This document shows positions 34,602-38,329 of a stretch of 55,453 nucleotides of DNA, one piece after another (position 1 is the first letter of the stretch; each line of letters begins with the position of its first letter). The notes beneath the pieces were generated by a model. The model made no database searches and was not told the origin of the DNA. It saw nothing but the letters and a program-made list of their open reading frames with translations. Source of the stretch: Chloroflexales bacterium (GTDB taxonomy: Bacteria > Chloroflexota > Chloroflexia > Chloroflexales > Chloroflexaceae); assembly GCA_037134395.1 (NCBI GenBank), contig JBAXMH010000001.1, forward strand, positions 1 through 55,453. Direction: 5' to 3'. The position numbers and the translations under genes were made by a program.

Positions 34602-35117
34602 ATGGAAGCGATTCAGAAATTTCTGTCAGATCTGGTGCCGATTCTCCAGGCTTTAGGCGTGTTTCTTGGAGCCTACTTGGTGTTGCTCTGGGCGGCGTCG
34701 GTGCTGTGGGCCTATCGCGATATTCGACGGCGCAGCGAGGATGTGTCGGTGCAGGTGCTTGCTGTTGGCCTGGTGCTGCTGCTGCCCTTTGTCGGTATCC
34801 CACTGCACCTGATCCTGCGCCCGCCACAGACCTTGTCCGAAAAGTATGAACGCTCGCTTGAGGAAGAATACCTGCGCAATGATATTGAGGAGAAGTATGT
34901 CTGTCCGGAATGTCAGCGCCCAATTGAGCCAGACTTCATCCTCTGCCCGCACTGTAACACCTCCCTGCGCCGTCGCTGTAGCGGCTGTGCGCGGGTGGTC
35001 GATCTGACCTGGAGCATCTGCCCGTACTGCGGCGATGATGGTACAACTGCCTCGCGCCAGGCACCTACGATTCAGGCGAGCAACTACAGGCCACCGGTTG
35101 AGAAAACCACGCGCTAA
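34602..35117 (+). CDS. Membrane protein with double zinc ribbon
   Basis: Two hydrophobic segments, then CPEC, CPHC, CSGC, CPYC. Confidence 0.85.
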   Translation: MEAIQKFLSDLVPILQALGVFLGAYLVLLWAASVLWAYRDIRRRSEDVSVQVLAVGLVLLLPFVGIPLHLILRPPQTLSEKYERSLEEEYLRNDIEEKYVCPECQRPIEPDFILCPHCNTSLRRRCSGCARVVDLTWSICPYCGDDGTTASRQAPTIQASNYRPPVEKTTR

Positions 35118-35124
35118 TGTGAAC

Positions 35125-35346
35125 ATAGCCGATAGCCGATAGCCGATAGCCGATAGCCGATAGTACTATAGTTGTAAATATCTTCGCAGAAAGGCTCCCG
35201 CCGATCACCCCCCTCAATCCCCCCGCAAGCGGGGGGAGGTTGGCACGTATGTCCCCCCCCGCTTGCGGGGGGGCTAGGGGGGGTAAGCCAAACAAACTAC
35301 AATTGTCGTAATAGCCGATAGCCGATAGCCGGGCGTTAGCGGCTAT
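35125..35346. repeat. (ATAGCCG)n array interrupted by a cruciform REP/MITE-like insert
   Basis: 5 units 35125-35159, 3 units 35311-35331, inverted CGGCTAT 35340-35346; double-hairpin element 35207-35284. Confidence 0.8.
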
Positions 35347-36442: not shown

Positions 36443-36556
36443 CCGGGTGTCCATGGCCATTTGCCCCTAGACAAGGTTTCAGATTGAGGCGAGATGCCTT
36501 CCACAGCCCCACAACCCCACACCTCCACATCGCGCAGTGTGTTAGGCTGTTGAGCT

Positions 36557-36760
36557 GTCGGGCTGTAGACCGAACAGTGATATACCCAAGGCTAAAGCTC
36601 TTGGGCTTCCTGCTTCATCGACTCGTGCCAGCCACAACGGTTGGGCTTACCGGGTCTCCACAGGCGTTTTGTGTCTCGGCGTAGCCCGCCGCGACATGTC
36701 TACCAGCAGAACGTGTGTGACCAGCTTGGTTTTCGCAAGGACACAAACGCCTACGTCTAC
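36557..36760 (-). ncRNA. TnpB-type omega-RNA (right-end RNA) scaffold plus flanking guide
   Basis: GCCTGTGGAGA...GAAGCAGGAAGCCC-hairpin-TCAC typical of tnpB right ends; internal promoter immediately upstream. Confidence 0.6.
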
Positions 36761-36906
36761 GACGGCAGTATACCAGGTTATTTGTTCTATTGCAAGCGGT
36801 TTGCGGCACGAGGAAGCCCTATGGCGAAGCTACAGCTAAAGCCGCTAAAGCGGATGAAGCCCTTATATCCCAGGGCTGAAGCTCCTGGGCTTTACGGGCT
36901 ATTTCT
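36577..36906 (-). mobile_element. Non-autonomous IS200/IS605-family element (PATE-like), 330 bp, no tnpA/tnpB
   Basis: Left end TTAC|...AAAG-CCCAGG..CCTGGG-ATA; right end GAAG-CCCAAG..CTTGGG-TATATCAC; same end architecture as IS608. Confidence 0.8.
36767..36795 (-). promoter_or_regulatory. Sigma70-type promoter inside the IS605-like element
   Basis: TTGCAA (36795-36790), 17-nt spacer ending TGG, TATACT (36772-36767). Confidence 0.7.
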
Positions 36907-36928
36907 GTAAAGCACCCACGAACCTTGT

Positions 36929-38329
36929 CTACAGATCAAACCCGCGATGGATGGCTCGCACCGCTTCGTCGCCGTCGGCGGCGGAGACGACGAGGGAGAT
37001 GTTGTTCTCGGTGCTGCCCTGGGCGATGGCGATCACATTGATCCCGGCGTTGCCCATGGCCCCGAAGACACGCCCGGCGATGCCTGGTGTGCCGCGCATA
37101 CCCGAGCCAACCACGGCCACGATCACCAGCGACTCTAGCACCTCGATATGCTCCACATCCTGGTCGGAGAACTCATCGGATAGCTCTTTGCGCAACTCGG
37201 CCTCAGCGGCGGCGGCCTCGGCGTGGGAGACAGCCAGGCAAACGCTCTGCTCGCTGCTGGCCTGCGAGATCAGCAGGATGTTGACGTGGGCACGGGCAAC
37301 CGCCCCGAAGATCCGCGCCGCCACCCCCGATAGGCCCAGCATCCCCGGCCCGCCCACGGTGATCATGCTCACATCCTTGATCGCCGTGACCGCACGGGCG
37401 GTGCGGTCGCCCCGACCTTCGCCGATCAGCGTGCCGGGGTGATCGGGGTTGAAGGTATTGCGGATGCGGATGGGAATGCGCCGCTGCACTAAGGGCTGCA
37501 CCGTCTTCGGATGCAGCACATTGGCTCCGTAGTAGGCCAGTTCGGCCATCTCGCTGTACGAAAGCATCCGCAGAGTGCGCGCCTCGGGCACGATCTTTGG
37601 GTTGGCCGTGAGTACGCCGTCAACTTCTTTCCAGAACCAGACCTCATCAACGTCAAGGCTGGCCCCGAGAATGGAGCAGGAGTAGTCGCTGCCGCCGCGC
37701 CCGAGGGTGGTGGGTACGCCAGTTCGCGTGGCTCCGATGAACCCGGTGACAACCGGCACAATACCGGATTCCAGCAGGGGCAGCAGGCGCTCACGCGTGC
37801 GCTCGGTGGTTTCCTCCATCAGTGGCGTGGCATTGCCGTAGCGTTCATCGGTGATAATCAGGTCGGTGGCGTCAATCGCCTGGGCCGGGATGCCCGCGCT
37901 GCGCAGGGCAGCAGCGATCAGGCGGGCATTGATTCGCTCACCCAGGCCACTAAACAGATCCAGTGCCCGTGGCGTCAGTTCGCCCAGCACCGCGATACTG
38001 CGCGACAGATTGCTCAGATAATCGAGCATGGCCCGCAGTTCCGGCTCAAGGGCGGCGCACTCGGCGGGCGAGGTTAGCTCGGCGGCGGCGCGCATGTGCA
38101 ACTCAAGCAGGCGCGGGGCCACGTGCGCTGTGGCATTGCCCTCGCCCCTGGCGGCCGCGTGGGCCGCAGCGATCAGCGAGTCGGTCGTGCGCAAGTCGGG
38201 GGCATTCATCGCCGACACCACCACCACAGCCTCGTGGTCGCGGTGAGTGGTACTCACAATCGCGGCAACCTGACGGATCGCATCGGCGCTGCCGACCGAA
38301 GTACCGCCAAATTTCATCACAACACGCAT
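36929..38329 (-). CDS. Aspartate kinase with two ACT domains
   Basis: VMKFGGTSVG, VVVSAM, TLGRGGSDYS, GANVLHP; GAGGA SD before ATG 38329. Confidence 0.95.
   Translation of the reverse strand: MRVVMKFGGTSVGSADAIRQVAAIVSTTHRDHEAVVVVSAMNAPDLRTTDSLIAAAHAAARGEGNATAHVAPRLLELHMRAAAELTSPAECAALEPELRAMLDYLSNLSRSIAVLGELTPRALDLFSGLGERINARLIAAALRSAGIPAQAIDATDLIITDERYGNATPLMEETTERTRERLLPLLESGIVPVVTGFIGATRTGVPTTLGRGGSDYSCSILGASLDVDEVWFWKEVDGVLTANPKIVPEARTLRMLSYSEMAELAYYGANVLHPKTVQPLVQRRIPIRIRNTFNPDHPGTLIGEGRGDRTARAVTAIKDVSMITVGGPGMLGLSGVAARIFGAVARAHVNILLISQASSEQSVCLAVSHAEAAAAEAELRKELSDEFSDQDVEHIEVLESLVIVAVVGSGMRGTPGIAGRVFGAMGNAGINVIAIAQGSTENNISLVVSAADGDEAVRAIHRGFDL

What the first reader, a model, noticed from the sequence alone, without database searches (positions are those of the whole stretch)
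36557..36910. Protein-less IS605-type element that keeps a promoter-driven TnpB omega-RNA
Seen on the minus strand: target TTAC (36910-36907), then a left end with AAAG before hairpin CCCAGG..CCTGGG. The right end has GAAG before hairpin CCCAAG..CTTGGG and terminal TCAC (36580-36577). Inside, TTGCAA-N17-TATACT starts an RNA near 36760 whose 5' AGGCGTTTGTGTC pairs with GACACAAAACGCCT, followed by the tnpB-type GCCTGTGGAGA...GAAGCAGGAAGCCC scaffold. Known: IS608 uses guide/cleavage pairs AAAG/TTAC and GAAT/TCAA, and GAAG/TCAC follows the same pairing rule. TnpB guide RNAs extend past the right end into flanking DNA. Inference: a 330-bp parasite that borrows TnpA and TnpB in trans. Its guide (TGTTCGGTCTACAGCCCGAC) would target its own excision joint, with a TAM ending in TTAC. 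The extra 5' stem could be a regulatory or stabilising addition.
Basis: partly seen in the sequence, partly recalled or inferred. Interest (0 to 1): 0.72.

Follow-up and report, generated by a model that had tools for sequence, protein, structure and literature searches.

The report
Mini-transposon keeps hidden tnpB RNA hairpin
This 330-base gene-less jumping element keeps its parent's promoter and guide-RNA scaffold, and also a predicted RNA hairpin normally buried in the middle of the parent's tnpB nuclease gene; the same hairpin is kept at the same distance by separately derived mini-elements in another phylum, so it is likely an overlooked working part of this nuclease group's guide-RNA system.

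Summary
All motifs are real. The element is a multicopy, recently mobile, gene-less deletion derivative (PATE) of tnpB-only IS605-family elements in the same Oscillochloris-like genome. Four full-length copies are identical, and empty alleles show precise insertion after TTAC. It keeps the parent's promoter and omega-RNA; metatranscriptome contigs hint at abundant RNA. PATEs with omega-RNAs are published, and this scan met them on other DNA.

It is a roughly 50-nt piece of the tnpB coding region next to RuvC-II that is predicted to fold on itself, capped by GC-GARAACCAA-GC. That stretch is the strongest synonymous-conservation peak in 48 related tnpB genes (19 of 19 Arg codons are the rare AGA). 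Two Rubrobacterales minis, derived separately, keep the same cap 158-159 nt from the right end (160 here).

It overlaps in position the unexplained 'inhibitory region' of AmaTnpB mRNA. Most likely it is a TnpB-binding RNA handle used in guide loading or processing; this is untested. No cognate tnpA is in the draft assembly.

The parts
36907..36910 (-). Target tetranucleotide TTAC (left cleavage site, predicted TAM); stays in the chromosome, outside the element
   Evidence: Present before every G000 copy with unrelated upstream DNA; kept once in empty alleles
36577..36906 (-). The 330-bp gene-less element (PATE)
   Evidence: 4 identical full-length copies with shared boundaries; 78-90% identical relatives in G004, G005, G006
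36869..36893 (-). Left end: DNA guide AAAG plus subterminal hairpin
   Evidence: TTAC/AAAG 33 and TTAT/AAAA 8 of 45 left ends; first 77 nt 97% identical to a tnpA+tnpB element in G006 (L093)
36767..36795 (-). Sigma70-type promoter inherited from the tnpB parent; predicted start near 36760, where the parents have the ATG of tnpB
   Evidence: conserved in sister minis; start site inferred
36709..36752 (-). Retained piece of tnpB coding sequence (about codons 278-292, just after the RuvC-II glutamate), predicted to form a local hairpin
   Evidence: Alignment to parents; folds in minis and parents; covariation; synonymous conservation peak
36724..36736 (-). Hairpin cap GC-GAAAACCAA-GC, the invariant part
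   Evidence: Exact in 36 of 48 parents, at most 1 change in 45 of 48; kept in Rubrobacterales minis L223 and L258 and their parents
36577..36696 (-). omega-RNA core: stems 1-4 like ISDra2, and a probable pseudoknot between the stem-1 loop and the terminal bases
   Evidence: Consensus fold; 92% identical to parent C90; weak RAGATH-18 match below threshold, 26 of 45 bits; pseudoknot inferred by analogy with PMC10097598
36577..36609 (-). Right end: DNA guide GAAG, hairpin (= stem 4), cleavage site TCAC
36557..36576 (-). Predicted guide (flank); it belongs to a small host repeat that the element interrupts
   Evidence: Differs in each copy; empty paralogue at G000:C31 with TTAC and 18 of 20 matches
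36468..36931 (.). Outer limits of the small inverted-repeat host element into which this copy inserted (arms 36921-36931 and 36468-36478)
   Evidence: the end motif occurs 107 times in G000 with at most 1 mismatch

Best explanation
It is a gene-less deletion derivative (PATE) of a tnpB-only IS605-family element that is likely moved by a TnpA supplied in trans and is predicted to make a roughly 185-nt-plus-guide RNA from the inherited tnpB promoter, whose 5' hairpin, cut out of the middle of the tnpB gene, likely serves as a TnpB-binding handle. Shown: the ends, copies, precise insertion after TTAC, parents with intact RuvC motifs, and nucleotide-level constraint on the hairpin. Inferred: in the parent mRNA the GARAACCAA-capped hairpin would capture TnpB and help it load and trim the downstream omega-RNA to its roughly 120-nt core. 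The mini fuses that handle about 10 nt ahead of stem 1, so it would draw TnpB made elsewhere (C90 is the best match, TTAC target). The loaded nuclease would cut TTAC+flank joints left by excision and let recombination restore the mini. Odds by step: PATE of this tnpB family 0.97; hairpin under selection 0.9; acts as RNA rather than DNA 0.8; partner is TnpB and the net role is loading or processing 0.5.
For: Copies and boundaries. Empty alleles: G006 (L340) for the C81 copy; G000 C8 and C293 for copies filled in L157 and L165. Parents C49, C90, C368 encode 400-401-aa TnpB with GVDVG, IEDL and DRDLNAA motifs. tnpA+tnpB elements with the same left end exist in G006 (L082, L089, L093). Over 48 non-redundant parents (45-100% aa identity) synonymous conservation peaks at codons 279-290 (excess 0.62, above the 0.55 of the omega-RNA overlap). 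All 19 Arg codons at position 285 are AGA, used in 1% of 1,810 other Arg codons, and AAA/AGA alternate at many places on the tree (quick tree). Local hairpin over 28 distinct minis and parents: 81% of cells paired against 30-47% when slid; 10 of 16 pairs change on both sides; score above 500 of 500 shuffles. Rubrobacterales minis L223 and L258 resemble their local parent (core 75-77%, left end 80%) more than ours (61%, 52-57%), yet keep the cap in a non-coding stem at -159 and -158, against -160 here and -380/-392 in parents. The cap follows the TnpB type, not the ends: 0 of 14 loci of other TnpB types or their PATEs (9 of them with the same left end), and 0 of 64 viral tnpB loci at 33-45% identity. 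No shared Watson-Crick partner for the loop in 10 minis, which points to a protein partner. RNA contigs (weak hint): exact-match pieces in X2 have depth 93 on the left end, 373 on the middle, 1362 on the core, 15-55 on flanks and about 20 on parent-like variants; the X4 contig stops at 36741, short of the promoter.
Against: No binding, processing or cleavage data exist. In PMC10278001 the positionally equivalent mRNA region of AmaTnpB inhibits cleavage; in PMC10097598 the 5' part of the ISDra2 RNA is dispensable. Covariation among the 10 distinct minis alone does not beat shuffles (141 of 500), and the shuffle control ignores relatedness. In parents under 60% identity the hairpin is no more stable than other coding windows (median rank 0.45) and only about 5 apical pairs are predicted. 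Only two independent mini lineages were found, and L223 came from a pattern that demanded the cap 15-45 nt before stem 1. No cognate tnpA in G000 (94.6% complete, 489 contigs). RNA contigs carry no strand or ends, X1-X3 are one sample, and identical copies cannot be told apart.
Confidence: 0.5

Rival explanations
1. Same PATE, but the hairpin is a brake. It holds the omega-RNA or TnpB inactive, possibly by switching into the first reader's long-range helix over stems 1 and 2, until processing removes it. Minis keep it because an unbraked, abundant guide would be toxic.
For: Same position as the AmaTnpB inhibitory region: E+4 to E+21 there (my count from the protein in supplement file 2) against E+1 to E+18 here. 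The 5' arm pairs with the scaffold at -14.8 to -20.4 kcal/mol in 10 of 12 minis but about -5 to -7 in parents. The window copy's guide nearly matches G000:C31.
Against: Long-range helix: 0 both-side changes, near-invariant 3' side; at most 0.1 expected pairs in all 8 minis folded; weak in 2 of 12 minis; 0 of 45 parents rank in the top 5% of coding windows. AmaTnpB is a different clade with a different amino-acid sequence there. A decoy effect would also follow from the best explanation.
Confidence: 0.22
2. The hairpin works with a host factor: it stabilises the RNA 5' end against exonucleases or aids elongation through untranslated RNA, with no TnpB contact.
For: It begins about 8 nt after the predicted start; the mini RNA appears far more abundant than parent transcripts, so much of it may be TnpB-free (weak hint); the Rubrobacterales minis also carry a boxA-like stretch (consensus recalled).
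Against: It is restricted to one TnpB clade and kept at a fixed distance from the core even where a 90-nt leader precedes it. Plain end protection would not fix a 9-nt loop sequence across two phyla.
Confidence: 0.17
3. The hairpin acts in single-stranded DNA during transposition (TnpA, primase or another host protein binds it in the excised circle).
For: These elements move as single-stranded circles (PMC3201880, passages); it lies on the active strand.
Against: Elements and PATEs with the same left end but another TnpB type lack it (0 of 14 loci); G-U-type pairs are frequent.
Confidence: 0.06
4. A neutral leftover of a two-step deletion; the conservation reflects the protein motif GLAKTKL.
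For: GLA[KR]TKL is in 104 of 120 homologues; the Oscillochloris minis may stem from one event.
Against: Synonymous positions are fixed; stems changed on both sides after the frame was lost; a second lineage kept only the 13-nt cap in a new stem.
Confidence: 0.05

Closest known systems
PATEs (Dyall-Smith 2011, PMC3119063) and PATE-like IS200/IS605 elements encoding omega-RNAs (Meers 2023 preprint, 10.1101/2023.03.14.532601)
   Same: No transposase, no terminal inverted repeats, near-terminal palindromes, no target duplication, homogeneous multicopy family, omega-RNA that needs TnpB in trans.
   Different: In the passages read, PATEs are fused ends, at most with C-terminal coding remnants. This one has three parts and keeps an internal tnpB segment from about 230 nt further upstream. 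The preprint's figures and supplements were not seen.
Standalone omega-RNAs (described in Altae-Tran 2023, PMC10691335, citing the 2021 paper)
   Same: Mobilised guide RNAs without effector or transposase, in genomes that hold effector loci.
   Different: No internal coding-region hairpin mentioned in the passages read.
AmaTnpB mRNA inhibitory region, nt 825-875 next to RuvC-II (Nety 2023, PMC10278001)
   Same: Same position in the gene; an RNA-level role in cis; proposed pairing with the scaffold.
   Different: Derived clade, different protein sequence there; its conservation was left open by the authors. Here it is a conserved self-folding hairpin with a fixed loop, kept by gene-less minis. 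No tested orthologue in that paper's files carried the lid motif.
ISDra2 TnpB and its omega-RNA (Nakagawa 2023, PMC10097598; best PDB hit, E 8e-81)
   Same: Four-stem core of about 116-120 nt; typical TnpB. A 160-nt Dra2 species with a 5' hairpin ahead of the core is listed in Nety's file 2.
   Different: That 5' hairpin is contiguous with the core in the gene, has another sequence, and the 5' region is dispensable for cleavage.
IS608 of Helicobacter pylori (He 2011, PMC3201880)
   Same: TTAC target, AAAG left guide, insertion 3' of TTAC without gain or loss.
   Different: Right cleavage site TCAC instead of TCAA; no tnpA in the element. The right guide GAAT of IS608 is recalled, not seen in the passages.

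Membership tests
PATE | [quoted passage not shown] | tested here: met
   330 bp; longest ATG frame 47 aa
PATE | Near-terminal palindromes, no terminal inverted repeats | tested here: met
PATE | No target duplication | tested here: met
   3 empty/filled pairs and one paralogue
PATE | Ends related to IS605-type elements | tested here: met
IS200/IS605 family ends | DNA guide pairs with the cleavage site | tested here: met
   41 of 45 left ends fit directly, 2 more after a 1-nt shift, 2 discordant
IS200/IS605 family ends | Y1 TnpA available for mobilisation | tested here: inconclusive
   None in the G000 draft; cognate-end tnpA in G006; recent mobility shown by identical and polymorphic copies
TnpB omega-RNA | Structured scaffold at the right end, overlapping the tnpB 3' end in the parent | tested here: met
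TnpB omega-RNA | Transcribed and running into the flank | tested here: inconclusive
   Contigs only, no strand or ends
TnpB omega-RNA | Guides TAM-dependent cleavage by the cognate TnpB | not testable with these tools
   Parents keep the RuvC motifs; no assay
RAGATH-18 RNA (RF03064) | Score at or above the gathering threshold | tested here: not met
   24.5-27.6 bits against 44.9
AmaTnpB-type inhibitory mRNA region | Located just after the RuvC-II glutamate | tested here: met
AmaTnpB-type inhibitory mRNA region | Complementary to the omega-RNA scaffold in the tnpB gene | tested here: not met
   0 of 45 parents in the top 5% of coding windows for the one scaffold strand tested
AmaTnpB-type inhibitory mRNA region | Inhibits DNA cleavage | not testable with these tools
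   Needs an assay

The most novel reading that the evidence does not exclude
A clade of TnpB uses a bipartite guide RNA: a GARAACCAA-capped hairpin hidden mid-gene, about 230 nt further from the core than in the minis, is an obligatory TnpB-bound module for loading or maturing the omega-RNA. Gene-less minis in Chloroflexota and Actinomycetota have separately spliced it to the core at the DNA level, at the same spacing, and so reveal the true minimal guide.
Probability: 0.35. Interest if true: 0.78.

Novelty: new variant of a known kind. Interest (0 to 1): 0.6.

Why it matters
Guide-RNA-bearing PATEs are known, so the element as a whole is ordinary. The retained hairpin is not: natural deletions point to an RNA element inside the tnpB coding region. 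Nety et al. left open whether the RuvC-II-adjacent regulatory region of tnpB mRNA is conserved and what it does; here is a conserved, precisely bounded candidate with natural variants to test. If it is needed for loading, recoded genes paired with core-only guides would make this clade (984 homologues at E<=1e-100; not all checked for the motif) look inactive in editor screens. If it is a brake, removing it should raise activity.

Tried and rejected
RuvC-I origin of the mini's 5' bases: considered; the gap-free alignment to the RuvC-II region fits better. Internal promoter or dimeric-repressor palindrome at the hairpin: no -10 box follows by eye, and the CTTG/CAAG arms are lost in L223 and L258. 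Loop pairing with another part of the RNA: no shared partner in 10 minis. Mutual-information scan of 46 parents: dominated by kinship, uninformative. Rfam: nothing at threshold. The 36575-36907 joint in RNA contigs is the C31 paralogue (10-12 differences), not an excision product. The G000 PF01797 hit is a domain inside a 1525-aa methylase-like frame, not TnpA. The hairpin model over 141 genomes of the order found tnpB genes and known minis, no new mini lineage; 3 weak hits had neither tnpB nor cap. Genome-wide pattern scan: 39 hits = 7 Oscillochloris minis, L223, and 31 judged chance by eye and a crude flag. Metagenome scan: 13 loci, all of the G000 or G006 types. Viral pattern scan: 0. Three G005 fragments (L061, L063, L067) hold the core without hairpin but also lack left end and promoter, so they do not test retention. 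The careful tree did not finish; the quick tree was used. Literature searches showed no description of this hairpin; most subscription papers and all bioRxiv supplements are outside the library.

Full report
Observation. The element lies on the minus strand between an aspartate kinase gene and a glycoside-hydrolase-like gene. The host is a Chloroflexota bacterium; minis of the same kind lie in records titled uncultured Oscillochloris sp..

Copies and mobility. G000 holds four identical full-length copies, one right-truncated, one interrupted by an IS630-like element, one left fragment and two left ends at contig edges. Of 41 genomes searched, 23 match some part; full-length minis occur in G004, G005 and G006 at 78-90% identity. 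Insertion is precise: the C81 site is empty in G006 (TTAC then ATG), and two copies seen in metagenome contigs (L157, L165) are empty in G000 at C8 and C293, with TTAC kept once. Across 45 distinct left ends, target and DNA guide covary: TTAC/AAAG 33, TTAT/AAAA 8, two fitting after a 1-nt shift, two discordant. This matches IS608 (PMC3201880, passages). The window copy interrupts a small host repeat whose empty paralogue at C31 has TTAC and 18 of 20 guide matches.

Helpers. Three tnpB-only elements with the same ends are in G000 (C49, C90, C368; 1385-1397 bp), with RuvC motifs intact; C90 shares the TTAC target. No IS200-type tnpA is in the assembly: the single Pfam hit is a domain in a 1525-aa frame, and tblastn with relatives' TnpA finds only left-end overlaps and a 26-residue fragment of another type on C254. 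G006 has tnpA+tnpB elements whose left end is 91-97% identical over 77 nt. The draft is 94.6% complete, so absence is not shown.

Anatomy. Alignment to the parents shows three pieces: left end plus the tnpB promoter, about 50 nt from the middle of tnpB, and the last 119 nt. The promoter is the parent's; the parents' ATG sits 7 nt after the -10 box, where the mini's RNA would start. The consensus fold of 11 minis gives a 5' hairpin and a four-stem core like that of ISDra2 (PMC10097598, passages).

The long-range helix is strong as a duplex in 10 of 12 minis but not in parents, has no both-side change, and is almost absent from the ensembles of the 8 minis folded. It would also break stems 1 and 2. 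The local hairpin forms in all 12 minis and 10 parents folded (weaker or shifted in L047, L049). Over 28 distinct minis and parents it is 81% paired against 30-47% for slid controls, with 10 of 16 pairs changed on both sides. Minis alone do not beat shuffles, and in parents under 60% identity only the cap is well supported.

Constraint inside the gene. In 48 of 49 parent loci kept after removing near-duplicates, synonymous conservation peaks at codons 279-290 (0.62), above the omega-RNA overlap (0.55); most other windows printed lie between 0.04 and 0.34. The 13-nt cap is exact in 36 of 48 and within one change in 45. Position 285 is always AAA (29) or AGA (19), though AGA is 1% of other Arg codons, and the two alternate across the quick tree. 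Kin are not independent, so these are not probabilities.

A second lineage. A pattern scan of the 185,579-species genome collection gave 39 hits: 7 Oscillochloris minis, one Rubrobacteraceae element (L223) and 31 judged chance. L223 is a gene-less IS605-type mini with different ends. A DNA search of 81 family genomes matched in 6, giving a second mini (L258) and tnpB parents (L254 with tnpA, L257) that carry the same cap at RuvC-II. In 104 genomes of that order the bare cap occurs 17 times (reversed control 11): 3 in tnpB, 2 in the minis, 12 unrelated. These minis are closer to their local parent than to ours, and the cap starts at -159 and -158, against -160 here and -380/-392 in parents. L223's spacing was partly imposed by the pattern; L258's was not. 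The cap is missing from 14 loci of other TnpB types and their PATEs and from 64 viral tnpB loci.

Expression. Four metatranscriptome runs of one study hold much of the stretch. Exact-match contigs rise from the left end (93) to the middle (373) and core (1362) over flanks of 15-55 in X2; X1 and X3 are alike but the same sample. In X4 one contig covers 36577-36741 and another copy's flank, while the promoter is uncovered. The tool warns that contig depth cannot rank parts of a gene, DNA may be present and strand is unknown, so this is a hint only.

Mechanism. Shown: ends, mobility, parents, constraint. Inferred from established IS605 biology (Meers preprint, passages): TnpA excises the strand, TnpB with the mini's guide cuts the empty joint, recombination restores it. 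Inferred here: the hairpin is an RNA handle for this TnpB clade, because it tracks the TnpB type rather than the ends, has a fixed loop with no RNA partner, and sits at a fixed distance from the core. The main rival is a brake: Nety et al. (PMC10278001, parts 2-4 of 5 read, three spreadsheets searched, figure file not seen) found that nt 825-875 of AmaTnpB mRNA, beside RuvC-II, inhibit cleavage. The match is of position only. A hairpin that binds TnpB could do both.

Novelty. PATEs are defined in PMC3119063 (passages); PATEs with omega-RNAs and standalone omega-RNAs are in print, and earlier notes of this scan report them in other genomes. Eight paper searches (listings), a 2026 review (PMC13639567, passages), the RAGATH-18 paper (PMC11061315, passages) and three further note look-ups showed no account of this hairpin. 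Subscription papers and bioRxiv supplements could hold one. Verdict: new variant of a known kind, interest 0.6.

Noticed in passing
L223:255-300; L258:1560-1620 (approximate): Both Rubrobacterales minis have an extra leader of about 90 nt with a stretch resembling an rRNA-operon boxA antitermination signal (consensus recalled, untested).
   Followed up: no
G000:C81:6517-6850: This copy sits between a -10-like box and the ATG of a gene, so the mini's RNA would lead into that gene and its guide equals the gene's first codons; the site is empty in G006 (L340).
   Followed up: partly
window 36557-36576; G000:C31:20687-20819: The window copy's guide matches a paralogous repeat in the same genome with TTAC and 18 of 20 bases (mismatches at 1 and 13): a possible self-target.
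   Followed up: partly
G000:C19:258-1458: An IS630-like element (two frames, label from the protein's look) inserted into the left-end loop of a mini copy; other copies in G006 are also broken at the end loops (L043, L045).
   Followed up: partly
L071, L073, L075, L079, L080, L081: Other gene-less elements share this left end but have the right end of the second tnpB type and unrelated cores; L071, L073 and L079 share a conserved core of about 200 nt.
   Followed up: no
L011 (G000:C25:19195-19425); G007:C89: A Y1/RAYT-like domain lies in frame inside a 1525-aa protein that looks like a restriction-modification methylase; a similar-sized hit in G007.
   Followed up: partly
L005 (G000:C200): A tnpB of another type is interrupted by an AT-richer ORF that looks like a homing endonuclease (by eye).
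   Followed up: no
G000:C129:8052-8159: A shorter PATE with only the two ends, itself interrupted by a GC-rich repeat; G006 has a longer mini at the matching site (L047).
   Followed up: partly
window 35113-35285: A very high-copy GC-rich repeat with contig depths above 4000 in the RNA runs.
   Followed up: no
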